Origin: Nemertoderma westbladi
Lineage: Eukaryota; Animalia; Xenacoelomorpha
Reading direction: 5' to 3'
Assembly: GCA_032718475.1 (NCBI GenBank)
Contig: JAUCBJ010001749.1
Span: 1-40,267 of the forward strand
DNA: 40,267 nucleotides
Numbering within the stretch: position 1 is the first letter of the stretch; every line of letters starts with the position of its first letter. The notes beneath the pieces were generated by a model. The model made no database searches. It worked only from the letters and a program-made list of their open reading frames with translations, and was not told the DNA's origin. This document shows positions 1 through 40,267 of this stretch, in pieces. The position numbers and the translations under genes were made by a program.

Positions 1-6
1 CTTTAG

Positions 7-536
7 CTATGAATGCTATCCACAAAGAGGATGATCGATTTCTTATCTATAGACGTCAAAAGAAAGAACTACCTGTCCGTTACATCCCCATGAGAGCTAC
101 AGCTGAATGTATTTTACGAGTCCCGCAACATAGATTGAGTAGGTTGATGGTAGATCGTCGAGTTACGTCGCAAAAGAAAGAACTTAACTTCTTAAGATTC
201 AGTATTCCGGGGAGAGTGTGTGGCCTTGCGACATTGAATATCAAGAGACGACAGTTAGCTAATGACTGGGGCATCATTTACGAGGGGAAACTGTGGCCCA
301 AGATGTTGATCAGCCGGGAGGCGTGGTTGTCTGATAGAGTGGCTCAGAGTTGGAGAGATAAGCGAAGTCGCATCGTTGATTTAGCGAAGGGAGATGCGCC
401 AAAAAAGAGAAACAGACGCGGGCTGTCGTCCCCACCGAATCCACGTCCGAAATGGTACGGCCTTATGGACGACATGTCGGGAACAAGTGGAGGCAAATAC
501 AAACCGGGTTATGTAGAACAAAATTATATCAGTTGA
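7..536 (+). CDS. Probable terminal coding exon of an unidentified gene (about 175 aa, basic)
   Basis: Open frame to TGA at 534-536 with higher GC than its flanks. The window starts with CTTTAG, a possible splice acceptor at 5-6. AATAAA at 650-655. No domain recognised. Confidence 0.5.
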
Positions 537-3479: not shown

Positions 3480-4470
3480 GCAGTATCAGTAATATCAGTA
3501 TGTAATACCGGTCTGCCGGTACACTGTACAGCAGAATGGATGGAGGCAAAGATTCCTGAAGCCGCATTGTACTGCTTTAACTTACTTTCAGTTTAATGCT
3601 ACCGGTCTGCCGGTACCGTATTTTAACAAAGTCAAGGTCACATCACATTCAACCATTCCAGCATTTGTCTGTCTGTCTATTGCAATTACAGAATTCTTAC
3701 AATCTGACAATTACCTACTGTATTACCGGTACCGGCATACCGGCTGACCGGTACTAAATTCACAATTACCTGAATACCAGAATGTCAAAATTTGTGCTGC
3801 AGTGCTGATAGTCAGATAGTTCGCAGTACCATTTGCTGTCCACTCCACAGCAGCACAGACTTCTCTCAGTAGTCAGTGCTGCTGCTGCAGTGGATCTATA
3901 CTGATCTACCAGCCTACCTGCCTACTGCCAGACTGCTGTCAGGCTGTAGTCTCAGTAAGCTGGATGCTGGAGGCTGATGCCTGCATGCAGGCATGGCAGC
4001 ATGGGTGTTGTCAGGTTGTTGTTGTTGATTGCAGCCTTGCAGGTTTCAACCCATAGACTGATAAATGTACTGTAGTTTATGTCTACTAGTCTACTAGTAT
4101 GTTATGCTGTTATGTATGTCACATACTGACATAGCTGCATAGGCCTACATGTTCTGTTCCTGTTCTGTTCACCCACATACAGCTGTACAGTATGTCAGTA
4201 TGTGGGTAAACAGAACCTGAGAACAGGTAAAGATAGGCCCTAATCCATATGTAATCAGATAATACTGGCAGACCGGTACAAACATGTATCCTGCCTGCTA
4301 TCGGTAGACCGCACCGGTACCGGTCAGCCGGTATCTACGGCTGTACGGCATACCAGCATACTACAGTACTACTGTACTGGCGTACGGTATCAGATCAGAA
4401 TCTAATAGGCCTACAGTTACAGTCTGACAGTACCGGTACCATGGTTCCGGTAATACTAACTGACTAATTC
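3480..4470. other. Dense cluster of putative transposon excision footprints
   Basis: At least 19 exact 5-mer/CAG or CTG/same 5-mer motifs in about 1 kb, plus TA-CAG-TA, TA-CTG-TA, TA-CCGG-TA and TA-GGCC-TA. Confidence 0.8.
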
Positions 4471-4493
4471 TGTCATTATGCATTAATACAGTA

Positions 4494-4745
4494 CGGAGTT
4501 ATAGTTCATATCCGTACCGACCTGAAAATCCCGCCTCTGTGAGCTGTGACCTGCTCCTTTCCCTGATTTCTGGATTTGGTAAAGTGACCGTTTATTGTTT
4601 TGGTTAGAAAAGCCCACCACTGTAACCTGCTCCTTTCTGCCTTTCCGTTAATTAAGTAATGGAGATTAGTTTATTGTTTTGGTTAGAAAACACCACCACT
4701 GTAACACCATCGGTCAGGTCGGTACGCATATGAACGATAACCCAG
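4494..4745. mobile_element. MITE with about 32-bp TIRs and TA TSD
   Basis: CGGAGTTATAGTTCATATCCGTACCGACCTGA (4494-4525) is inverted at 4714-4745. TA flanks both sides. It ends 61 bp before the HOPX-like ATG. Confidence 0.85.
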
Positions 4746-4806
4746 TACGGTAATCTTGTAATAGAATACCGGTAGCCTAAACTAAATTTCAAATATTTGA
4801 ATTGTC

Positions 4807-5922
4807 ATGGCGGTAAACTATTTGCAACCTCGTGTATACGGCCCAACGAGACATACCTTACACGGGAGCATCGCCGCTCCCACCGTCTCTAAGTCCCAGA
4901 CAAATCGATCTCAAACAGTTTCGGTTCCTCTCACCGACACAACGAAATCCGTATCCGTGAGACCGAGCGTGAGAACTCTGAAACAAACTCGAGGTCGCAT
5001 CCAACCCGGTAAACCAACATACCCCCGAATCACAGAATCAACCGGATTCGACACAAACAGAAACCGACTTTCCTCCAAGTCACTTTCCTGTCCGAGATTG
5101 CGAACTCAAAGTGTCGAAAGCATCGGGAGTCATCGGAGCTTCGCCTCCACCGCGTCCAACCCGCAACGAATACAAACAACATATTTCAGCGTCTTCAATC
5201 GGAAAGACTCTCCTAGTTTCGGCAACGTGGACCAACTCCCCTCCAAGAATCCGTACCCGCGGTACCAGTTGGCCTCCGAAGACGACGACGACTTCCTAAC
5301 GCCGCCGAGTCGCTCGCCGGAGTTCCACTCGTCGCAGGGCTCGCTCAGCAACCTCGCGGGGCTGGAGAGCCCCCCCGCAGCCCGGTTGCGCGTGCCGGAC
5401 CTGCTGGATCGCAGCGCCGACAGCTGCGATCGGCTGCGGTCCCGTTCAGTTACCCCCAATAGTAAGCGGTACCCGCGGTTCTACCAGGGAACCTCGCAGC
5501 ACCGGGAGCGAACACCGGAGTCTCTGAGTTACAGACCAACCAACCTGGAGTCCACCCCGGATGCGCGTTCTAGAACACATGCGAATATAGCCAGATCAAC
5601 GCCGAGTTCTAGAACATTTACGTTAGAGACACCGCCGAGTTCTAGAATGTACGATGTCGCCGTTTCGCCGACACCAACCACCGATACAACTACGCACTCG
5701 GCTGCTGGAGGCGTATCGATGCGGTACCCGCCATGGAATTCAGAAGCGTTCTACCGGAACAGAATCCATCGTATCGTAGCGAAACCTTCCACGGCTGAGA
5801 TGGAACTAAGTTCCCATCAACTCAGTGTTCTAGAATCCGCCTATAAGCTGAATAAATGCCCAGATACTGACGAACTATCAATTCTGTCCGAGAAAGCAAA
5901 CATGTCTACTTCTCTGGTTAAA
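4807..5922 (+). CDS. HOPX: HOPX-family homeobox gene, coding exon 1 (372 aa: long S/T/P/R-rich region plus homeodomain helices 1-2)
   Basis: The ORF ends in LSSHQLSVLESAYKLNKCPDTDELSILSEKANMSTSLVK, followed by the donor GTGAGT (5923-5928). The intron is phase 0, at the usual PRD-class position in helix 3. Confidence 0.8.
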
Positions 5923-6597
5923 GTGAGTAAATTTTATATCCCCATTTATGTCCCTTAGTACATGTACTTTAGTAAGTTTCTCTCTACCACCAAGACTATT
6001 AACCTTCCTTTAATGCTGAACTAATAGGGGATTGATAATAAAAGTTTAGGTTCAATCAAACCAGCAAAAATAGTAGGCCTATACCGGAACCACAAAAAAC
6101 ACGAAATGTCAGCGTACGAGATGAGATTTAATTTCATTCATGGAGACATAATGGTTTATGTTTCAACAAAATATAAACAATTACAAACCAATATTGTATT
6201 CGATTTAGTTTTTTCCTGAAACAACCAGTTAAATTGTATTATAATTTTATTAAATAATAATTATTATTTCTACCAAACCCGCATTGATAACAATATGGGC
6301 AATTATTGTTTGATAATAACATCTTCCGGTTCAGGGTACACTAAATGCAAACTTCGGTAATCAAATATGGAGGGAAAGAGATTAATAATATCCAGTAAAC
6401 AACATTGTCCGACACGCTAACAGTGATTGGAACACAGAGGATCTGTCATAACCTTTGGAGACTATCACGTTGACAAATAATATAAGTTATTGTTTAATAT
6501 ATAATAATAATATCACAATATTTATCTCTACCGCTAATCGAGTCAGAAAGCGTTTTATTCGCACTTTAATTTCAAGTCTCTTTATTTTATTTTTTAG

Positions 6598-6684
6598 ACG
6601 TGGTACGAGAATAAATTATCCGAATGGCGTCGCAGAGAAGGTCTCCCAGCCCGGGGCTCTTCTGTGTTCGATCGCTTCCGGTGA
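6598..6684 (+). CDS. HOPX: HOPX-family homeobox gene, coding exon 2
   Basis: After the acceptor TTTTTAG (6591-6597) it reads TWYENKLSEWRRREGLPARGSSVFDRFR*. This matches the diagnostic HOPX C-terminus (human KWFKQRLAKWRRSEGLPSECRSVTD, from memory). Confidence 0.88.
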   Translation, partial: TWYENKLSEWRRREGLPARGSSVFDRFR

Positions 6685-6774
6685 GACTCTTCCGGTGTGT
6701 ATCGCTTCCGGTGAGACTCTTCCGGTGTGTATCGCTTCCGGTGAGACTCTTCCGGTGTGTATCGCTTCCGGTGA
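6671..6774. repeat. 30-bp tandem repeat x3.5 overlapping the HOPX stop codon
   Basis: ATCGCTTCCGGTGAGACTCTTCCGGTGTGT at 6671, 6701 and 6731, partial at 6761. Confidence 0.95.
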
Positions 6775-6937
6775 TCGATCGACTCCCCGCGAAGGCAATC
6801 GGTTTCCGTTGAAGGGTAGAATGGAATTCTCTGGTGTTATGTCTGTTTCCGGTGACGGTTGGGTTATTGACTCCCAACTCTATGGTGCTACACCGGAATA
6901 TCTCCATTGTATTTCCCTTGCCTTTATTTATTTGACC

Positions 6938-6943
6938 AATAAA
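6938..6943 (+). promoter_or_regulatory. Candidate polyadenylation signal of the HOPX-like gene
   Basis: First AATAAA after the stop codon, about 250 bp downstream. Confidence 0.5.
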
Positions 6944-8258
6944 CTCACGAAGTAGCCTATATAGTAGCGTTCTATTGCTTTGGCCGCCTTTAGTTGTGGG
7001 GTATTGGACGGACGGGGTCGGTTTTTATTTTATTTTTTTCAGACAACTATAATTCAAGTGCTCATTACATTCCGTAATTTTTTAGTTAAATTTTATTTAT
7101 ATTTGGAATAAGAATTGTGTTTATTTAACAACAATACGACCGCTAATCAAAGTAAAATAATATTATTGATAATATTTCTTTATAGTAATTAAAAATTTTT
7201 TAGTAAGTAATCTTTAGTTCCATTTAACAAAATAGATGGAGGGGGGGGGGGGGGGGGGGTCCCTTTAAAAACAGTTTTTATTACTAGAAATAGATAAATA
7301 ATCAAGATTATATATCATCATAATACGAATTTAGGGATGATCTGTTAGTACACTAGTGTCCCTTAACGGGATCCCGGTGAAAAATCCAATCCCGATCCCG
7401 ATCCCGACTTTTTTTTGGAACGGGATTCCGAAGTATAAATAGTGAAGTAAATATCTTAATATCCGATGAATAGTTGCTAGTTAGTTGAACCAGAAGAGAA
7501 TGTCAGTAAAACATCCAGAAATCAACTATAATTAAATTGTAATATAACTTTATCTTACTAATAGTTCAGAAGTGTAGACGGCCTCAGTACACCAACCGAG
7601 TATTTACGCTGGCAGGGAATGTATATTTTCTTATTATTCTAATAAATACGAATTAAGTCGTTAACGTATTGGTGAGTTAACGAGTTGGGGAGCGTAATTT
7701 AAAATGCATATCATTTTATAAACATTTTTTTTCATTGCCTCGTCATTTTAAATGTTCTGTTGGCTTATTTACGCCTTTAATATAAATCGCCGTTTCATTA
7801 GTAATACAAACCTTTAATTTATCGTTTTGATTATAAATAATAATTGAACTGATTTCCCTGCAAACTGAATTCATCGCAGTGCATTTAATAAAATGATATA
7901 CAATAATTAATTACCAACAAATATCATTACCAAATGCCACTTATGTAACACTTTGGTTTGTATCATTTAGTTTATATTTATTATAGTAATTTATTTGGTA
8001 GATGGTTTATAGCCAACAATAATTTAATGGGTGCTTATCTCAATTTGTATTAAATAATTACTTAAATTAGCTTTGTGTGTTACAGTTCTTTGTAGTCCGC
8101 CTAGCAGCCGGGATTATTGGGCAAAAAAGTGTTAGTGATGTGATGTTATAATTATTTAAACACGATAATGCTATAAAAGAATTCTCAATTAATTGGAAAA
8201 AATTCGCAGATTATAGTTTGATTTTCGTCGCCTCCGTAATAAATAAATAAATATGCGT

Positions 8259-9530
8259 ATTCATATATGGGTTGACGCTTGACGACTTGTCTACTCGAGC
8301 AACCGATACATATATGGGTTGACGCTTGACGACTTGTCTACTCGAGCAACCGATTCATATATGGGTTGACGCTTGACGACTTGTCTACTCGAGCAACCGA
8401 TACATATATGGGTTGACGCTTGACGACTTGTCTACTCGAGCAACCGATTCATATATGGGTTGACGCTTGACGACTTGTCTACTCGAGCAACCGATACATA
8501 TATGGGTTGACGCTTGACGACTTGTCTACTCGAACAACCGATACATATATGGGTTGACGCTTGACGACTTGTCTACTCGAGCAACCGATACATAAAATAT
8601 GGGTTGACGCTTGACGACTTGTTTACTCGAGCAACCGATACATATATGGGTTGACGCTTGACGACTTGTCTACTCGAGTAACCGATACATATATGGGTTG
8701 ACGCTTGACGACTTGTCTACTCGAGCAACCGATACATATATGGGTTGACGCTTGACGACTTGTCTACTCGAGCAACCGATACATATATGGGTTGACGCTT
8801 GACGACTTGTCTACTCGAGCAACCGATACATATAAGGGTTGACGCTTGACGACTTGTCTACTCGAGCAACCGATACATATATGGGTTGACGCTTGACGAC
8901 TTGTTTACTCGAGCAACCGATACATATATGGGTTGACGCTTGACGACTTGTCTACTCGAGCAACCGATTCATATATGGGTTGACGCTTGACGACTTGTCT
9001 ACTCGAGCAACCGATACATATATGGGTTGACGCTTGACGACTTGTTTACTCGAGCAACCGATACATATATGGGTTGACGCTTGACGACTTGTCTACTCGA
9101 GCAACCGATACATATATGGGTTGACGCTTGACTACTTGTCTACTCGAGCAACCGATACATATATGGGTTGACGCTTGACTACTTGTCTACTCGAACAACC
9201 TATACATATATGGGTTGACGCTTGACTACTTGTCTACTCGAGCAACCGATACATATATGGGTTGACGCTTGACGACTTGTCTACTCGAGCAACCGATACA
9301 TATAAGGGTTGACGCTTGACGACTTGTCTACTCGAGCAACCGATACATATATGGGTTGACGCTTGACGACTTGTCTACTCGAGCAACCGATACATATAAG
9401 GGTTGACGCTTGACGACTTGTCTACTCGAGCAACCGATACATATATGGGTTGACGCTTGACGACTTGTCTACTCGAGCTTCCGATACATATATGGGTTGA
9501 CGCTTGACGACTTGTCTACTCGAGCAACCG
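8259..9530. repeat. 47-bp minisatellite, 27 near-identical copies
   Basis: Unit ATACATATATGGGTTGACGCTTGACGACTTGTCTACTCGAGCAACCG. Span 1272 bp = 27x47 plus one 3-bp insertion. Confidence 0.97.
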
Positions 9531-13996: not shown

Positions 13997-14587
13997 CTAT
14001 GTTTGATGTTTTCTGATCTGTGAGTCCAGCAGTTTACCCCAAATGAAACTAAAAGGATGGCAAAACTTTGTAGGTTGGCCTGCTTGGTCTACCATGGGAC
14101 GCCCCTCATTGGCCCACTTAAAGAGACTCCCTTCCAGGTTATACAAACTCACTCCATCCATCACCAACATTCCAGATTTCTGTAGTTTCTCGATAATATT
14201 TGAGGATCTATAACCCACCGAACAATAAGCAACTACTAAACACTTTCGGCTTAAACTTCCATCAGTAGGAGGTACTTGACAATGAAATATTCTATCAACT
14301 TCGTTCACAATACTTTCTAGATCGGGGTTATAAGGGTCAATATTCATTGCACCTTTTATGTGACTGATAAAGAACTCATCCTTGTGTCGGGTATCGAGTA
14401 TTACGAGGGATTCGGGGTCGTTATCAGAGTTGGTTAACATCTCGTTCAGAGTTTCAGTTTGTAGTTGATTTACCGAGGGAAACTTTGTTCGAATCCCGGT
14501 TAGAGTGATCCGCATTCCAACGGGAACATTGTTCATCGGTTGGGACTCACCCGAACGACTGGCTTGCGGGTCGGGGGTCGAATCCAT
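13997..14587 (-). CDS. Single-domain rhodanese-like (sulfurtransferase) protein, 196 aa, intronless
   Basis: VILDTR..EF..SHIKGA, active-site loop YCSVGYRS, YNLEGSLFKWANEGRP and C-terminal HPFSFIWGKLL. Confidence 0.9.
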   Translation of the reverse strand: MDSTPDPQASRSGESQPMNNVPVGMRITLTGIRTKFPSVNQLQTETLNEMLTNSDNDPESLVILDTRHKDEFFISHIKGAMNIDPYNPDLESIVNEVDRIFHCQVPPTDGSLSRKCLVVAYCSVGYRSSNIIEKLQKSGMLVMDGVSLYNLEGSLFKWANEGRPMVDQAGQPTKFCHPFSFIWGKLLDSQIRKHQT

Positions 14588-16027
14588 TTATTGCCGTTTT
14601 GGATATGTTTTTTTAGTAGAAACTACCAGCAAACCGGTTGCCGGTTCGGCCTACGGTACATTACATCATAAGCTAAGCTCAGAAGCTGTAGGACTAGTAC
14701 GATGAAAGTACAGCTGTATGCAGGCAGTCTGGTATGTTTAAGTGATTTACGCTACAGCCAGACAGCACTACCTGATACAGATTGAGACCAAAGGCCTACT
14801 ACCAGACTACGTACTACAGTGGAACGGAGAATACAGATTACTGATAATTATATTGCTAGTCCTACTTCTTACTTCTGGGGTAAACGATGAATCTTACAGC
14901 AGTACAGTACGTACGATAGGCCATGTTTACATTCGACTGGTATTTGTGTCCATTATCTAAGTTTACTTATCTTTGGTAATGGTAACTGGCCTGAGGATAT
15001 TTGCGGGTTTAGTTTGTTGGTTTGGTCATGGATGATAGGTCTACTACTGATTTCGCTCATTAGTAGGCTACAGTACTACAGTACTTTATATCGCTACACC
15101 TACACCATTTCTGGAGCTGGAATATAGTGTCGTTATTCTGGAAGCATATGACCCCTCTGTGACGGGATCCTGGTTCTGGGATCCCGATACAGTTCGACTT
15201 GGTAATGTGTTTCCTACTCGCTGCGGCTGACTTCTTGGCTGAAGGACTGACTGGCCGTAGGCCTGGGAAAAAGCTAGAGTTAATCTGAGTGTCGATTTTA
15301 TTAATATAATTAATAGTCTCGATAGTACAGTTTACTGTGCTATTGAGATTGACAAATAGATTTGAGGATTAAATTACATTTTTTTTTTTATTTTTTACTA
15401 GCTAATAAAAATTACTAGCTAACACAAAATCAAAATTACTAGCTACGATATTTTTGTCCGATGGCCAAATATTTGTTCTAGAACAAAAAACGTCATAAAA
15501 AAAGAAAAAGTTGGTAAATTTTTTTATTTTAATTTTTCAATAATGATTTTTTCCACGTACTTACGGAGCCCGGGAAGGGACATGAGAAAAATATTTTTCT
15601 AACACGAGCCCTCGTGTTACTAACACGAGCCCTCGTGTTACTAACACGAGCCCTCGTATTACTAACTCGAGCCCTCGTGTTACTAACACGAGCCCTCGTG
15701 TTAGATAACACGAGCCCTCGTATTACTAACTCGAGCCCTCGTGTTACTAACACGAGCCCTCGTGTTAGCTAACACGAGCCCTCATGGTAGCTCCAACGAC
15801 CATTTACATTAATATTATTACAAATTTGGAGTTGTTTCATTGGTTGTAGTAACATAGGAGAACTAAATTGGAGGGAAATTCAAATTGTATCTCAGTGGTT
15901 CTTACGTTTCTGTTCTGTTCCTGTATGTTTCGTGTATGACAACAGTTCGAAGTTTGCCACTTAATTGAATTCGCAGTAATTCAACTTAGCAACGCGAACT
16001 ATTGCATGCCCAGCACATTTTGACATT

Positions 16028-17240
16028 ATGTGGCCCGATGAGTTAATGCCGCTTCTCAACATTTATTTTGACCTTAGCATGCCTTATAAAGATATTTCGT
16101 CTGTACTCGCCAATGATCATGGGATAAACATTGGTGAGCGACAACTAAAACGTTTATTTAGAGATTTCGGATTACAACGTCGAAATTATACACCATTGGA
16201 AGAAGTTGTAGAATTTATTAAAAATCAATTGGCTGGATCGGGAAGCATGCTGGGTTATAGAATGATGTTTGAAAAGTGTCGCCGCAACGGCTTAGTTGTG
16301 AAAAAGGAGGACGTACGAATAATTCTCAAGGAACTTGATCCACGAGGAGTCGAGCTTAGACAATCGCACCGACTTAAACGACGTTCATACTATGCCAGAG
16401 GTCCAAATTACCTCTGGCATTTGGACGGCTATGATAAACTAAAACCGTTCGGTCTATGTATAGTATAAGCGGTTGCATAGATGGGTTTTCACGGAAGATT
16501 TTGTTCTTAGAAGTTTATAAAACCAATAACAACCCAAAAATTATTGGTGGCTATTTTGTTGATTTAGTAGCTCGCCTTGGTGGGTGCCCTTTAATGGTCA
16601 GGGCAGACTACGGAACTGAAAACACCTACGTGAGAAGCTTTCAGATGTTTTTTCGCCGCAATTGCACTGATGGCTTGGTAACCCGGGCGTATACAGACGG
16701 GCGCAGTACGTCAATCAAAGAATCGAGAGTTGGTGGGGGGTTCTTCGGAAGGAGAACGCGCAGTTCTGGATAGAATTATTTAAAGAATTGCAGGCAGAAG
16801 GTATCCTCCCCGGAGACGTTGTTTCAAAGGCTGTTGTTCAGTTCTGTTTTACTTCACTAATTCAAAACGAACTAGACACATTAGCATCAGTTTGGAACCA
16901 CCATCTTATTCGTCCTTCAAGAAATCCCAACGTTCCAAGCGGTCGACCTAATATTATGTATTGTTCGCCTAGCCTCTACCATGCTACCGAACTAGCTACC
17001 GAACAGCTCGTAACCGTAGCGCCTTCTGAAATTAATACCTGCTGCTCCAACGAATTATTCCGCTCATATATTCCTTGTGATGCCGATGTATATGAACTGT
17101 GCATTCAGTTAATACGTGAGAAGAACCTCCGACGTCCTCTATCCGTAGACGACGCCGTGGAACTTTATCTCATCCTTCACAATGCAATTCGCGAACTTCT
17201 TGGAAACAACGTAAACGATATGTATACTGAGTCAGATTAA
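16028..17240 (+). pseudogene. IS3/IS481-type DDE integrase-transposase with two frameshifts
   Basis: HTH region, then WHLDGYDKLKPFG, CIDGFSRK, RADYGTEN and (after a 1-bp loss near 16712) NQRIESWW, then WNHHLIRPS. A 5-bp insertion near 16461 splits C-I-S-G-C. Confidence 0.9.
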
Positions 17241-17848: not shown

Positions 17849-18133
17849 TTACAAGTTTGGTTCTTTGTTAAGTTAATAATGTATTACAATAGTAATTCTC
17901 CTTTCTAGATTCAATGAAGGATTAAAGACTCTGGGAGTTCTAAATAATATACAAGATAATAGAGATATCTTTAAGGAAGTTTTCGTTTATAAAAAACGAA
18001 AACTTCCTTAAAGATATCTCTATTATCTTGTATATTATTTAGAACTCCCAGAGTCTTTAATCCTTCATTGAATCTAGAAAGGAGAATTACTATTGTAATA
18101 CATTATTAACTTAACAAAGAACCAAACTTGTAA
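17849..18133. repeat. Perfect 140-bp-arm palindrome with 5-nt loop, containing a HECT/G2E3-like exon fragment
   Basis: Arms 17849-17988 and 17994-18133. After TTTCTAG the sequence reads FNEGLKTLGVLNNIQDNRDIFKEVF. Confidence 0.9.
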
Positions 18134-20105
18134 TTGCCTTTCGTCGTCATAGTAACGATCATTAATTGTTGATAATTATAGTTAATAAAATAATTAATTA
18201 ATTAAATAAATATTGTAAATTCAACAACTTTAATAAAACATGGATCAATAGAAAGGAGTGAAGGAAATTAAGAAAGTGAAAGAGATTGATTAAGTTACAT
18301 AAATTTTAGATAATTGTAATTATTCAGCAATTAAGTTTCACAACTAATCGTTATAATTAATGGCAGTTTTTAAATATAGGAAAATTACTGCTCTAGTGGC
18401 CGGCGAATGCGATCGAAGCAAATAAACTTCATAAAGACTGGAGACAAGTGTATCTCTATGGGTGACAAGTGTATCTCTATTTAGTAGTACTGTAATACTG
18501 TATAACTTCTGGGCTTATCTTGTCGGTTACCATCCCAGGAATGAACTCGCCCAAGCTTCGTTCTCTCATGAATGTTTCAAGTTCGTTATTTATATTCACA
18601 CTTAGTCAGTATACCTGCAGCCGTTAAGAGAAACGCGAAATATATAATAGGCCTACTGTATACTGAACAGTAACGTAAGAACCACTGATATACAATTTTA
18701 ATTTCCCTCCAATTTAGTTCTCCTATGTTTTTACTACAACCAATCAAACAACTCCAAATTTGTAATATTAACGTAAATGGTCGTGTTAGCTAACACGAGG
18801 GCTCGTGTTACTAACACGATGGCTCGTGTTAGCTAACACGATGGCTCGTGTTAGCTAACACGATGGCTCGTGTTATAACACGAGGGCATGTGTTAGTAAC
18901 ACGAGGGCTCGTGTTATGTAGTAACACGAGCCCTCGTATTAGCTAACACGAGCCCTCGTGTTAGTAACACGAGCCCTCGTGTTAGCTAACACGACCATTT
19001 ACGTTTGTTAATATTGGGGAAATTAAAATTGTAAATAAAGTAAAAAAAATTTTTTTGAACTCTCGCATTATCGTTATTTTTCAACACTCGATATTTTTAC
19101 TCGCGTTATTTTTACTCTCGATATTTTTCATGTCTCGATATTTTTCAATATAACCCACCTACAGGGAGTGCCAAAGTGACAATTAGTATATAAGCCAATA
19201 GCGGGCAGGGGAGCACATGGGGAAAGATAGGAAAGCATCCATTGGGTAGCAAAAGTACAGTAGAGGTGAAACCAATATCTATGTGTATCAATCATATAGT
19301 TATCCCGATTACTGATTTACCGGTCAGTTCATTAATCACAGAGTTGCAGACCGGTTATAGTTTTAACCATCACTTCATCACTCTATACACTGCTGTTGTA
19401 ATTCTGTATTGCAATTTCAATCATATACTGTTATACATTCTGTGCTATTATCATTGGAACATTAACATTGAGAAACACAAACTCTGTTATTTTCCCGACG
19501 GCCTTCGGCCAAAGATATAAGTTCAGCAGCCCAGCAGAAAGTGACGCGTATAACCAAACCCGGTCGGGATCCTTGAACTCGATCCCGTCACATAGTATTG
19601 GTGAGATTTCAGGACAGAGGGATTTCAGGATTTGTTGTGATTGTGATTTCTGGATTTGTCCGTTTATTGTTTTGTTATACTGTACTGTTATATGATGTGA
19701 TTTGTTTGGTTTTGGTGTTATTTGTTCTGATTTGGCTGTGTGGTGTGATTTGTTCTGATTTGGGTTTTTAGACCGATCCTTTACTGTACTGCTGTACTGT
19801 TTTTAGTCCTACCGCCTTTCTGCCTTTTACAATTTGGTTTTACCATTTACCTTGGTTTTAGCAGTTTCAGAGTTTAGCATTTACTGTAGTTATGGGGCGC
19901 CATTCTGGTCAATTGCACATGCCATTCTCGCTGCGAGATGTCATTCTCGCAGCGAGATGTCATTCTCGCAGCGAGATGTCATTCTCGCAGCGAGATGTCA
20001 TTCTGTCTGCGAGATGCCTTTCTCACTGCGAGATGTCCCATTTTCTGTTTATTTTTATTTTACTGAATCCAGTATCTCAATCTGTACTTTACTTGTAACA
20101 CTGAA

Positions 20106-37180: not shown

Positions 37181-40100
37181 ATGACTTCAAGGAAAGTAAC
37201 TGGCAATGGCCCCCATCGAAAAATTACCGTGGAGGATTTACCCGAGTATTCCCAGGTCCAACAAATCAAAGATAAGAAGAAAAGTGTCTTCGAAAGATTG
37301 GGAAATAACGACGACGAACAAGAGTCTCTCGCAAAACAGCCACGGCGTCTGGTTTTGACTTCATCCGATTCCCTTTCAACAACAATTGGTGTCGAAGCCG
37401 ACCATTGTAAAACCTGGATGGAAAATGCTTACTGCGAGAAGGGGTCCGCCTGCGAACACAAACACGACATCAAGAAACGAGGCATCTACCAGTCCACCAG
37501 CAGTAGAAAGTTGGCCAACTTTGATATTGAAGATGGTGAGATAGTTCCTAAGAGTACCTTACGATCTATGGTTGCCGCTGTTGGAGGTTCCCATAAAATA
37601 CTTGGCATTACTCCAAAGAAAGACAAAGAAAAGAAACGAAAGAAGAAGGAAAGGTTATTAAAGAAAATCCAGGAGGATTCTATAGATACTACTGATGAGG
37701 ATTTGATTATTAAAGTTAAACATAAATCTAAATTGTATTCCGAGAGCAATGATGACGAGACGTTCGATCCCATTGCATTGGATAATAAAAAGGAACTTGA
37801 ATTAGAAATTAAGAGGCAACAGTTGCAGAAAGAGTTGGACAAAATGAAGGAAAGCGAACGAGATGAACTGCGTAAATCAAAGAAACCTCATAAACCACGA
37901 GCTCGGACCGCTTCAACCAGTTCTAATGATTTGTTTGAAATGAGTCCTGTGATGCAGGGCAAAGGAATGCGCCCCCCTAGCCCAATGGCTGCTGTGGTAA
38001 ATCCGCGAAAAATAATTCGCAATAAATCCGAACATTTATTAAATGAGGCGCACGTTAAAACGCATAGACCCGTAATTGGTCGTCTGTCGCCACCAGCAAG
38101 CAAAAATATTAAATCGTGGAAAAGTTCAAGGGATTCAAAATCTTCATCGGAAAGGCAAAGAAATATATCCGCTGAGTTCGTGAGGGAGGGGTCAGACGAT
38201 CATCTGGATATTGTTCCAGTCCGAACTGATAAGAGACTCTCTGGTGAGAGAAAATCCTTCGTTATGAATGAGGTTAAGTACCCTGGGAAGGACAGACAGA
38301 GTACTCGGGATGGGTACGAGTTGAAAACAGACCGTTCCGAGCGGAAACAAACAACTGATAACGGATACCGGAGGAAATCGGGTGAGCCGGACAGATACCA
38401 CCGTCGTAAGGACAGTGCTGAACACGATGCTTACGGGCATAAAGTATCGGAGCGGGATCGATTCGCATGGAAACAGCCGGAGCTAGACTTCCGACAAAAG
38501 TCGGAGGAAAAGGACAATTATAGAATGAAACTGGAAGGAACTGACAGACGGATTCGTAAACATTCGAATGACGTGTATGATGGTAAGAAAGGGGAGCGGG
38601 ATGGTTACGGGAAGGCAGACTCGGATGGATACAGACGGAAAACCGACGAGTTTGGAGACGGGCCGCACTTCTCAGAGGAGGGCGGGAAACGGACGGATTC
38701 CAGGGACTCCAAAGGGCGGAAGAAGTTTGAGATGAAAGTTACGGAAGATAAGCGGAGAAGGAATTCGGGCGGGGAGCGGAATTACACGGAGGATAAATTC
38801 TCGGAACCACGAGGCAACCGTTACGAAACGAAAATCAGAAAGTACCCCGACACGGAGAGGGAGGGTAAAGGGAGACGGGAGCGGGGGTCTAAGTCGCCGG
38901 GGAAGCATTCCGGGGGGAAACGCCGGTCCCGTCGGTTCTCTTTTACCGCGGAGGATGTTGAGGATATCTGCGGGGACTTCCGGGACGAATTCTCATCGGA
39001 AAAGGGTTCGCGGAGCAAAGCCGGAACCGCCAAGTACTACGAGACCGGCGCGAAGAAGAGACAGACCGGGGACTGGGCTGAGGAGGAGCCGGTTGGGAAG
39101 AAGAGGAAACCGTCGCCGGAAGGTCGAGACTCCAAGAAGTACGGAGGGAGGACTCCACCTCCGGATAAACGGCACGGGAGGAGTCCGGCGCGGCTGAGCG
39201 TCGAGTCCTACAGGAAAGAGAAGCAGTCCGGAAAACTACGGGAGCTTCCGAAGGAGCGGGCCAACGAGGATAAACCTCGAGGGAGGAGGTATGAGGAGGA
39301 ATCCCGAGTGTTCTACCGGGAACCGGAGGAGTTCCCGCCTCCGAGAAGGGAGGAGGCTTATCCTCGGAGTCTTTCCCCGACGCGGTTCTGCCATCCAGAT
39401 CGCCGTGAGTTCATCACCACATCCCGCGAGTTTGCCTTCCCGTCGCCTCGTCGGACTCCTCCGCCTCCGTTGTTCCCGGATGAGTTCGCGGGTCGTTTCC
39501 CGGGCGGTGGACGCTCCCCGCCCCTCTTACTCCCCTTCCCCGAGGACATGGACCCGATTCTACAGCTGCGCGGCGGTGTTGGAAATCCTGAGTTCCTCGA
39601 GGACCGATGGCGAGAGTGTTTCGAGCACTACCAACGGGAGGACAGCGGTTACGCTGACAACTGGTACAGGGACAGGGTCAGTCGGGGGGAATACTTCCCT
39701 CCCGTGGAGAATCATATGGGGAGGAACTTCCAGTCGTTCGGTGGTGGTGGTGGCAGTGGTAGTGGCGGTAGGGAGAGGCGCCACGATGGGGCTCCCTGGA
39801 GGCCAGCCGGTAGGTCACAGAAGAGTAACCAATCAGAAAGCATGAAGACTAAAAATGATGGCCAATCAGGAAGCTTCAGGACTAAAAACGAGGGCAAATC
39901 AGATAGTTTCAGAACTAAAAATGATGGCCAATCAGATAGTTTCAGAACTAAAAATGATGGCCAATCAGATAGTTTCAGGACTAGAAATGATAGCCAATCA
40001 GATAGTTTCAGGACTAAAAATGATGGCCAATCAGATAGTTTCAGGACTAAAAATGATGGCCAATCAGAAACTTTCAGGACTAAAAACGATGGCCAATCAG

Positions 40101-40267
40101 AGAGCAACAGAACTAAAAACGGTGGCCAAACAGGTAACTTCAGAAGTAAAAATGAGTCTCAATCGGGAGGATTTAGGACTAAGAGCGAATCTGATACTGG
40201 GCGAGGGAAAGATTTGGCGAAATCTCGGTCTGATAGGAATCACTCCGACTACTCAGAGAGTTCCCGC
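37181..40267 (+). CDS. ZC3H13: ZC3H13-like CCCH zinc-finger protein (m6A writer complex adaptor), 3' end outside the window
   Basis: MTSRK..RKITVE..SVFERLG, a C-x8-C-x5-C-x3-H finger (37406-37465) and ELELEIKRQQLQKEL, then R/E/D/S-rich low complexity. This motif order matches remembered ZC3H13. The frame is consistent at 37181, 37406 and 39842 and runs off the window (1029 codons). Confidence 0.85.
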   Translation, partial: MTSRKVTGNGPHRKITVEDLPEYSQVQQIKDKKKSVFERLGNNDDEQESLAKQPRRLVLTSSDSLSTTIGVEADHCKTWMENAYCEKGSACEHKHDIKKRGIYQSTSSRKLANFDIEDGEIVPKSTLRSMVAAVGGSHKILGITPKKDKEKKRKKKERLLKKIQEDSIDTTDEDLIIKVKHKSKLYSESNDDETFDPIALDNKKELELEIKRQQLQKELDKMKESERDELRKSKKPHKPRARTASTSSNDLFEMSPVMQGKGMRPPSPMAAVVNPRKIIRNKSEHLLNEAHVKTHRPVIGRLSPPASKNIKSWKSSRDSKSSSERQRNISAEFVREGSDDHLDIVPVRTDKRLSGERKSFVMNEVKYPGKDRQSTRDGYELKTDRSERKQTTDNGYRRKSGEPDRYHRRKDSAEHDAYGHKVSERDRFAWKQPELDFRQKSEEKDNYRMKLEGTDRRIRKHSNDVYDGKKGERDGYGKADSDGYRRKTDEFGDGPHFSEEGGKRTDSRDSKGRKKFEMKVTEDKRRRNSGGERNYTEDKFSEPRGNRYETKIRKYPDTEREGKGRRERGSKSPGKHSGGKRRSRRFSFTAEDVEDICGDFRDEFSSEKGSRSKAGTAKYYETGAKKRQTGDWAEEEPVGKKRKPSPEGRDSKKYGGRTPPPDKRHGRSPARLSVESYRKEKQSGKLRELPKERANEDKPRGRRYEEESRVFYREPEEFPPPRREEAYPRSLSPTRFCHPDRREFITTSREFAFPSPRRTPPPPLFPDEFAGRFPGGGRSPPLLLPFPEDMDPILQLRGGVGNPEFLEDRWRECFEHYQREDSGYADNWYRDRVSRGEYFPPVENHMGRNFQSFGGGGGSGSGGRERRHDGAPWRPAGRSQKSNQSESMKTKNDGQSGSFRTKNEGKSDSFRTKNDGQSDSFRTKNDGQSDSFRTRNDSQSDSFRTKNDGQSDSFRTKNDGQSETFRTKNDGQSESNRTKNGGQTGNFRSKNESQSGGFRTKSESDTGRGKDLAKSRSDRNHSDYSESSR
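39828..40190 (+). repeat. Coding 33-bp repeat, about 11 copies (QSDSFRTKNDG)
   Basis: CAATCAGATAGTTTCAG(A/G)ACTAAAAATGATGGC, in frame with the ZC3H13-like ORF. Confidence 0.93.

What the first reader, a model, noticed from the sequence alone, without database searches (positions are those of the whole stretch)
4807..6684. A HOPX that is not homeodomain-only: about 330-aa N-terminal extension
Splicing 5922 to 6598 gives a 400-aa protein ending in a HOPX-type homeodomain with WRRREGLP. Vertebrate HOPX is about 73 aa and does not bind DNA. Here an unbroken 331-codon S/T/P/R-rich frame precedes the domain, while an in-frame ATG at 5800 would give a 69-aa canonical-size protein. Helix 3 reads WYENK, retaining Asn51 that human HOPX (WFKQR) lacks. 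Exon 2 is absent from the ORF track.
Basis: partly seen in the sequence, partly recalled or inferred. Interest (0 to 1): 0.7.

Follow-up and report, generated by a model that had tools for sequence, protein, structure and literature searches.

The report
Invertebrate Hopx with long disordered front
This animal gene is a divergent member of the normally tiny Hopx "homeodomain-only" family, and an unbroken reading frame in front of it likely adds about 330 disordered residues, although the protein probably still cannot bind DNA and no transcript has been seen.

Summary
The gene model is real. Exon 1 is 4807-5922 and exon 2 is 6598-6684, with a GT-AG intron at homeodomain position 46/47, giving 400 aa.

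It is a divergent Hopx. Exon 2 matches only HOP among solved structures, and the domain scores 55.6 bits on a Hopx profile built without it, against at most 41.6 for other single homeodomains.

The 331-codon upstream frame is unlikely by chance: 3 of 20,000 simulations were stop-free. It starts at a GC step, and its internal repeats keep the frame. I put translation at about 70%. No RNA or orthologue could be tested.

- Asn51 is probably a secondary change from His51, and 3 of 47 other Hopx have it. Arg5 and Arg53 are missing, so DNA binding is unlikely.
- Two further in-frame ATGs (5647, 5719) give 120- and 96-aa forms, normal invertebrate sizes.
- Extended Hopx has database precedent: three related proteins, two named Elysia, carry a conserved, unrelated Ser/Pro-rich extension of 103-129 aa.

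This is the longest extension among those retrieved. The scan's notes held no earlier Hopx finding.

The parts
4807..5922 (+). Coding exon 1 (372 codons if ATG 4807 is used)
   Evidence: Open frame 4801-5958; donor GTGAGT at 5923; GC change-point at 4824, interval 4794-4874
4807..4809 (+). First in-frame ATG, G at -3 and G at +4; gives the 400-aa form
4807..5784 (+). 326-codon Ser/Thr/Pro/Arg-rich extension, predicted disordered. Basic first third (19 K/R against 4 D/E), acidic patch at aa 159-162, 11 Ser/Thr-Pro sites, frame-keeping internal repeats
   Evidence: No Pfam match; no Atlas hit; coil with pLDDT mostly under 50 in a single-sequence model
4810..5560 (+). Stretch with no ATG in any frame, the longest such gap in the window (754 nt between ATGs)
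   Evidence: 0 seen, 3.5 expected from dinucleotides (p about 0.03)
5647..5649 (+). Second in-frame ATG (A at -3); 120-aa form
5719..5721 (+). Third in-frame ATG (weak context); 96-aa form
5800..5802 (+). Fourth in-frame ATG (G at -3 and +4), at homeodomain position 6; 69-aa form
5785..5922 (+). Homeodomain positions 1-46 (helices 1 and 2); Glu at 5, no basic N-terminal arm, no helix 1-2 insertion
   Evidence: Pfam PF00046, E 3e-5 for 5800-5922
5923..6597 (+). 675-nt GT-AG phase-0 intron at homeodomain position 46/47; 30% GC
   Evidence: same position in Hopx loci L011 and L017
6598..6684 (+). Coding exon 2: helix 3 (W48 Y49 E50 N51 K52 L53, W56), Hopx GLP tail and TGA
   Evidence: Only HOP (1UHS, 2HI3) matched in the PDB, E 4e-4
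6671..6774 (+). 30-bp tandem repeat, 3.5 identical copies, overlapping the last codons and the stop. The tail is 14 residues past position 60, against 11 in most Hopx
6938..6943 (+). AATAAA, candidate poly(A) signal near the end of the GC-rich 3' stretch (drop at about 7022)
   Evidence: use is inferred
4487..4752 (.). MITE-like element with 39-nt inverted arms, ending 55 nt before ATG 4807; its core recurs elsewhere in the window

Best explanation
This is an intact two-exon gene for a divergent Hopx-family homeodomain, whose first exon likely encodes a roughly 330-residue, predicted disordered Ser/Thr/Pro/Arg-rich region in front of the domain, and whose product likely works as a non-DNA-binding co-regulator like vertebrate HOPX. 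Shown: gene structure, Hopx signature residues, loss of Arg5 and Arg53, and an open frame far longer than chance gives. Inferred: translation starts at ATG 4807; the domain binds partner transcription factors and chromatin enzymes rather than DNA (SRF and HDAC2 for vertebrate HOPX); the extension grew partly by short in-frame duplications and acts as a phosphorylatable, basic, flexible module that tunes partner binding, location or turnover. The 750 nt without any ATG after the first start would let some ribosomes scan on to ATG 5647, 5719 or 5800, so long and normal-sized forms may both be made.
For: Family: exon 2 matches only HOP structures. On a Hopx profile built without the window, the domain scores 55.6 bits, against 41.6 for the best single non-Hopx homeodomain in the PDB and at most 36.2 for 730 domains in 135 multi-homeodomain proteins. 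The window has L53, W56 and G61, found in 45, 46 and 47 of 47 Hopx. The intron is at 46/47, as in human HOPX (PMC2211742, passages) and loci L011 and L017. Hopx plus window form one side of a branch at 93/93 once one long outgroup row is left out. Coding: no stop in 3 of 20,000 simulations, and 15 of 20,000 for the 280 codons upstream of ATG 5647. ATG at the third codon of the open frame, in good context. GC rises from 39% to 52% at 4794-4874. In-frame spacing for 15 of 26 repeated 8-mers and 4 of 4 repeated 10-mers, against 3 of 30 upstream, 3 of 15 in the intron and 9 of 32 downstream. Three-base periodicity in the last two thirds, p 0.008 and 0.004. No T-rich acceptor inside the extension. 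Precedent: P0011, P0016 and P0018 share a Ser/Pro-rich extension with 52 of 96 ungapped columns invariant and a common first Met. No DNA binding: E5, L53, E50, E55; Arg5 is in 99 of 106 Drosophila homeodomains and makes minor-groove contacts (PMC4901127, passages); chicken Hop did not shift homeodomain sites (PMC2533040, passages).
Against: No transcript, protein or orthologue supports the extension. No homologue of exon 1 was found among 4,093 candidates of 204-651 aa, and none in the Atlas. The first third of the extension shows no periodicity (p 0.48; whole extension p 0.09). The repeat events are not independent (spacings 33, 39, 72, 216 and 255 are sums of one another), and a coding control, the long ORF from 37181, was not enriched at 8-mers (10 of 25). 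The ATG-free 750 nt also fits a 5' UTR. The 3' UTR is GC-rich too (53%), so the GC step marks an exon edge, not necessarily coding sequence. In the full tree the window joined two long outgroup branches beside Hopx, and the AU test neither rejected nor showed the clade (p 0.50). It joined one long outgroup row again when the other was left out. The domain is at most 38% identical to known Hopx and scores below all of them on the profile (55.6 against 71-133). The partner-binding role is carried over from vertebrate papers and untested here.
Confidence: 0.65

Rival explanations
1. The gene is an ordinary-sized Hopx (120, 96 or 69 aa from ATG 5647, 5719 or 5800). The upstream stretch is a GC-rich 5' UTR whose frame is open by chance, with transcription starting just after 4809.
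For: No ATG in any frame from 4810 to 5560, the longest such gap in the window. 36 of 47 Hopx have 50 or fewer residues before the homeodomain. L002 and L011 are closed by a stop shortly upstream. Ixodes models of one gene start at different points, 82-244 aa, which shows how GC-rich leaders inflate gene models. The GC change-point interval extends to 4874.
Against: An open frame of 280 codons upstream of ATG 5647 arose in 15 of 20,000 simulations, against p about 0.03 for the lack of ATG. The long repeats keep the frame. An ATG in good context sits at the third codon of the frame.
Confidence: 0.22
2. The long protein has regained nucleic-acid binding. A His-to-Asn change at position 51, the basic segment just before the domain and the basic disordered front make it a sequence-specific or chromatin-binding factor in its own right.
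For: N51 is present. Basic residues lie at about aa 316-326, just before the domain, and the first 130 aa hold 19 K/R against 4 D/E. Helix 2 has diverged from other Hopx, which may mean changed partners.
Against: Arg5 and Arg53 are absent, and acidic residues stand at 5, 50 and 55. N51 also occurs in three short Hopx (P0033 Tubulanus, P0124 Dermacentor, P0160 Hypsibius), so it looks like a tolerated substitution.
Confidence: 0.07
3. The gene is a fast-evolving duplicate, or a chimera with unrelated coding DNA fused to a Hopx-derived exon pair, and not the working Hopx orthologue; or the domain only resembles Hopx by convergence.
For: Long terminal branch and unstable position in trees. K52 where 46 of 47 Hopx have Arg. 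A MITE-like element lies 55 nt upstream. The genome could not be searched for a second copy.
Against: The frame, both splice sites and the tail are intact. The W-x4-L-x2-W-x4-G-(L/F)-P tail was in none of 135 non-Hopx proteins. The extension has no match elsewhere in the window or in Pfam.
Confidence: 0.06

Closest known systems
Vertebrate HOPX/Hop (PRD class, Hopx family; PDB 1UHS, 2HI3; PMC2211742, PMC9179269)
   Same: 46/47 intron; L53, W56 and EGLP tail; no Arg5 or Arg53; protein ends a few residues after the domain
   Different: 326 residues before the domain instead of about 2-5; no helix 1-2 insertion; Y49, E50, N51, K52 instead of F, K, Q, R; about 28% identity over positions 1-65 to the rodent-type sequence L005
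Invertebrate Hopx (oyster, snail and amphioxus in Paps et al. 2015, PMC5322547; database entries from molluscs, annelids, nemerteans, chelicerates, insects, barnacle and tardigrade)
   Same: No helix 1-2 insertion in the protostome rows; Y49 (9 of 47) and E50 (23 of 47) are common; same tail and, in L011, the same intron position
   Different: Lacks Leu5 (44 of 47) and His51 (40 of 47); E60 instead of Q60; the upstream IxAxL block is at best degenerate (p about 0.08); 20-38% identity; much longer N-terminus
Extended Hopx of Elysia (GFS03098.1, 175 aa; RUS70789.1, 200 aa) and the related unnamed protein P0016 (174 aa)
   Same: Low-complexity Ser/Pro-rich N-terminal extension with many Ser/Thr-Pro sites and internal repeats, in front of a Hopx domain
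   Different: 103-129 aa against 326; no sequence similarity to the window's extension (best E 0.53); conserved in three sequences, whereas the window's has no known orthologue; conventional His51 domain

Membership tests
Homeodomain (PF00046) | Three-helix domain with L16, aromatic 20, W48 and aromatic 49 | tested here: met
   Pfam 24.2 bits, above the 22.9 cut-off, for exon 1's 41 aa alone; L16, Y20, W48, Y49 read from the sequence; helices 1 and 2 appear in the low-confidence model
Hopx family (PRD class) | Helix 3 and tail signature: non-Arg 53 (Leu), W56, R57, GLP | tested here: met
   the tail pattern was absent from 135 of 135 non-Hopx proteins
Hopx family (PRD class) | Intron between homeodomain codons 46 and 47 | tested here: met
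   PMC2211742 passage; L011 and L017. Shared with many PRD-class genes, so not specific to Hopx
Hopx family (PRD class) | Scores with Hopx rather than other homeodomains on a family profile | tested here: met
   55.6 bits against at most 41.6 (PDB single domains) and 36.2 (730 domains); known Hopx score 71-133
Hopx family (PRD class) | Groups with Hopx in a homeodomain tree | tested here: inconclusive
   62 columns only. Full tree: beside Hopx with two long outgroup rows, AU p 0.50. 93/93 for Hopx plus window without O_P0137; not one side without O_P0123
Hopx family (PRD class) | One-residue insertion between helices 1 and 2 (described for human HOPX) | tested here: not met
   Absent in the window, but also absent in the protostome Hopx rows, so it marks chordate members and not the family
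Hopx family (PRD class) | No DNA binding; acts through SRF, HDAC2 and other partners | not testable with these tools
   Residues predict no binding; no assay was possible
'Homeodomain-only' architecture | Protein barely longer than the homeodomain | tested here: inconclusive
   Not met if ATG 4807 is used (favoured); met if ATG 5647, 5719 or 5800 is used
Canonical DNA-binding homeodomains | Arg5, Asn51 and Arg53 together (role of Arg5 from PMC4901127; roles of 51 and 53 recalled) | tested here: not met
   E5, N51, L53

The most novel reading that the evidence does not exclude
A Hopx that turned back from a minimal cofactor into a full-sized transcription factor. A His51-to-Asn reversion, a new basic segment just before the domain and a newly grown 326-residue disordered region give it its own DNA or chromatin binding and effector function, while leaky scanning across an ATG-free 750 nt still yields the short cofactor form from the same mRNA.
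Probability: 0.07. Interest if true: 0.75.

Novelty: new variant of a known kind. Interest (0 to 1): 0.36.

Why it matters
HOPX is the textbook smallest homeodomain protein, and reviews define it by its size. This gene, together with the conserved Elysia extension found along the way, suggests that some invertebrate lineages independently added large disordered regions to it. That would be a clean natural case for asking what a new disordered region adds to a non-DNA-binding co-regulator. It also corrects the family picture: position 51 is mostly His outside vertebrates, and Leu53 with Trp56 and the GLP tail is the family mark. The gain is modest until translation of the extension is shown.

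Tried and rejected
Expression and genome: no whole genome is held. No RNA holder was listed for 4500-7100; this blank is no evidence either way.

Homologue searches that gave nothing: exon 1 protein, 0 hits among 4,093 candidates; a two-row alignment of the exon translations, no candidate; the Atlas for the extension, no usable hit. The Atlas for residues 300-372 gave only two leads at 0.78, one a 'Homeodomain-only protein' cluster. The viral collection held no match to the Hopx pattern or to a canonical helix-3 pattern.

The profile search of 1.84 billion representatives was swamped by multi-homeodomain proteins. Of the 150 listed, 135 were such proteins and 15 were Hopx; the list ends at about 73 bits, so more divergent Hopx, including close kin of this gene, could lie below it.

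Of 19 metagenome pattern hits, 10 were Hopx and 9 were chance matches that I dropped. Of 41 hits, four (P0039-P0042) were unspliced or mis-called fragments and were dropped before counts.

Inconclusive tests: whether the protostome IxAxL block survives upstream of ATG 5800 (score -0.1 against 11-23 in homologues, p about 0.08); a tree without outgroup.

Rejected: the extension as an intron or as reached by an upstream exon (no T-rich acceptor in 4807-5800); as a dispersed repeat (no second copy in the window); as homologous to the Elysia extension. The Bulinus 325-aa model P0022 has the same domain as the 107-aa P0015 and is a doubtful precedent.

The animal group could not be determined. Searches of the scan's own notes by place, relatives, sequence and words gave nothing on Hopx.

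Full report
1. The observation. The gene model stands as written. An open frame begins after a stop just before 4801, with its first ATG at 4807. A GTGAGT donor at 5923 and a T-rich acceptor ending at 6597 bound a 675-nt phase-0 intron. The spliced frame gives 400 aa and ends at TGA 6682-6684. Exon 2 has only 28 open codons because the acceptor's TAG is in frame. The DNA is animal-like, with spliceosomal-type introns, many repeats and no CpG depletion at the gene. The group could not be determined, and no genome is held.

2. The domain is a divergent Hopx. Exon 1's last 41 codons match Pfam Homeodomain (E 3e-5). Exon 2 alone matches two PDB sequences, both HOP (E 4e-4). A DNA pattern for the helix-3 tail gave 19 metagenome hits, of which 10 were Hopx. 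These seeded a search that returned 41 proteins, 37 of them full Hopx from molluscs, annelids, a nemertean, chelicerates and unnamed records. A profile search added 10 more. On a profile of 29 Hopx without the window, the window's domain scores 55.6 bits. Rodent HOP scores 71-73 and the best single non-Hopx homeodomain in the PDB 41.6. The 730 domains in 135 multi-homeodomain proteins score at most 36.2. L53, W56 and G61 are in 45, 46 and 47 of the 47 Hopx and in the window; the full tail pattern was in none of the 135 other proteins. The intron is at position 46/47, as in human HOPX (PMC2211742, passages) and loci L011 and L017. Trees of 62 columns are weaker. In the full tree the window sits beside the Hopx group with two long outgroup branches, and the AU test gives p 0.50 for Hopx plus window. 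Leaving out one long row gives Hopx plus window at 93/93; leaving out the other leaves the window paired with the remaining long row inside a Hopx-dominated group. Identity to known Hopx is only 20-38%. Hopx outside chordates is known: Paps et al. 2015 report it in oysters and a snail (PMC5322547, passages and supplement passages).

3. Asn51 does not point to DNA binding. Among the 47 Hopx, position 51 is His in 40 and Asn in 3 short proteins (Tubulanus 78 aa, Dermacentor 121 aa, Hypsibius 88 aa). Amphioxus also has His. The set leans towards His because the search words came from His-bearing rows, but the amphioxus sequence is independent of that. The window's Asn is therefore more likely a secondary, one-base change than a retained ancestral residue (inference). 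The window has Glu5, Glu50, Leu53 and Glu55. Arg5 is in 99 of 106 Drosophila homeodomains and makes minor-groove contacts (PMC4901127, passages). The backbone contact of Arg53 and the adenine contact of Asn51 are recalled knowledge. Chicken Hop did not bind homeodomain sites in EMSA (PMC2533040, passages), and reviews describe HOPX as acting through SRF and HDAC2 (PMC9179269 and PMC12608687, passages).

4. Is the extension translated? For: composition-matched simulations expect 9.1 stops in 331 codons and gave none in 3 of 20,000 runs; for the 280 codons upstream of ATG 5647 the figure is 15 of 20,000. Conservative models trained on the extension itself gave 9-10 of 3,000. The ATG is the third codon of the frame, with G at -3 and +4. 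GC rises from 39% to 52% at 4794-4874. Repeated 8-mers are spaced in frame in 15 of 26 cases and 10-mers in 4 of 4, unlike the upstream (3 of 30), intron (3 of 15) and downstream (9 of 32) controls. No T-rich acceptor lies inside. Against: those repeat events are not independent, and a coding control was not enriched at 8-mers (10 of 25). The first third has no three-base periodicity (p 0.48). No homologue was found. The 3' UTR is also GC-rich, so the step marks an exon edge rather than coding sequence as such. From 4810 to 5560 there is no ATG in any frame, the longest such gap among the window's 685 plus-strand ATGs (3.5 expected from dinucleotides, p about 0.03). This fits a 5' UTR, or leaky scanning to shorter forms. 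Weighing p about 0.0008 for the open frame under the UTR model against p about 0.03 for the ATG gap under the coding model, with a prior of about one in ten for long Hopx, I put translation of the extension at about 70%.

5. What the extension is. It has no Pfam match. It is coil with low confidence in a single-sequence AlphaFold model, which is weak evidence since the whole model averages pLDDT 43. It is 36% Ser, Thr and Pro, with 11 Ser/Thr-Pro sites, a basic first third and one acidic patch. Short units recur in frame at 33- and 39-nt steps, which suggests growth by small duplications. The likely working model is inferred: the domain binds partner proteins as in vertebrates, and the disordered front adds phosphorylation-controlled docking, localisation or turnover.

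6. Precedent. Of 47 Hopx proteins, 36 have at most 50 residues before the domain, 6 have 51-99 and 5 have 100 or more. Three of the five (Elysia marginata, Elysia chlorotica and the related unnamed P0016) share a Ser/Pro-rich extension with a common first Met and 52 of 96 ungapped columns invariant. It is unrelated to the window's extension. Ixodes models vary from 82 to 244 aa for one gene, and the Bulinus 325-aa model is doubtful. At 326 residues the window's extension is the longest seen, but the idea is not unique. Eight literature searches showed no paper on extended invertebrate Hopx in their listings. I saw only listings for most hits, and subscription papers such as the original HOP reports were not read. 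One of the two supplement files of PMC5322547 could not be searched.

7. Verdict. This is a real, intact, divergent Hopx gene with a probably coding, probably disordered long N-terminus and probably no DNA binding. It is a new variant of a known kind. Interest 0.36; it would be higher if translation and conservation were shown.

Noticed in passing
proteins P0011, P0016, P0018: The Elysia Hopx extension is built from Ser-Pro-Thr-Ser-Pro-Tyr-like repeats, expanded in tandem in E. chlorotica. They recall the RNA polymerase II CTD heptad (resemblance from memory, untested). It is conserved in three sequences, which makes it a better-supported case of extended Hopx than the window's gene.
   Followed up: partly
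proteins P0030, P0034, P0043-P0049, P0124, P0181: Tick Hopx models have a GC-rich-looking open frame upstream of the conserved start, partly shared between Ixodes and Dermacentor. It may be a real short extension or a UTR. Dermacentor Hopx is named as a Rax-, Vsx- or Pitx-like protein in NCBI.
   Followed up: partly
proteins P0160, P0167, P0175: Hopx-type proteins are on record in a tardigrade, locusts and a barnacle, a wider range than the chordates and molluscs named in the passages read from PMC5322547.
   Followed up: no
window 14000-14587 (-): Single-exon 196-aa rhodanese-domain ORF (PF00581, E 3e-11); the exact sequence is not in the protein collection.
   Followed up: partly
window 15980-17237 (+): Transposon-like integrase gene (rva_4 PF24764, with a Clr5/HTH-like N-terminus) split over three frames, lying between arrays of a 21-22-bp repeat at 15599-15783 and 18777-18994.
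   Followed up: partly
window 37181-40267 (+): Open frame of more than 1,000 codons with no intron, running off the window end. The N-terminus looks like ZC3H13 (name recalled; no Pfam hit at E 0.05), and it holds a 33-bp coding repeat at 39829-40155.
   Followed up: no
window 3506-4769: 18 of the window's 40 TACCGG/CCGGTA motifs cluster in the 1.3 kb just upstream of ATG 4807; a smaller cluster lies just before the ORF at 37181. They may be promoter-associated.
   Followed up: partly
window 8262-9530: 47-bp tandem array of about 27 copies at 96% identity, 1.6 kb downstream of the gene.
   Followed up: no
window 17960-18130: A segment of about 85 nt is followed directly by its near-perfect reverse complement, forming a long hairpin-like inverted duplication (read).
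   Followed up: no
window 3-533 (+): Open frame of 177 codons running off the window start, with no Pfam match.
   Followed up: no
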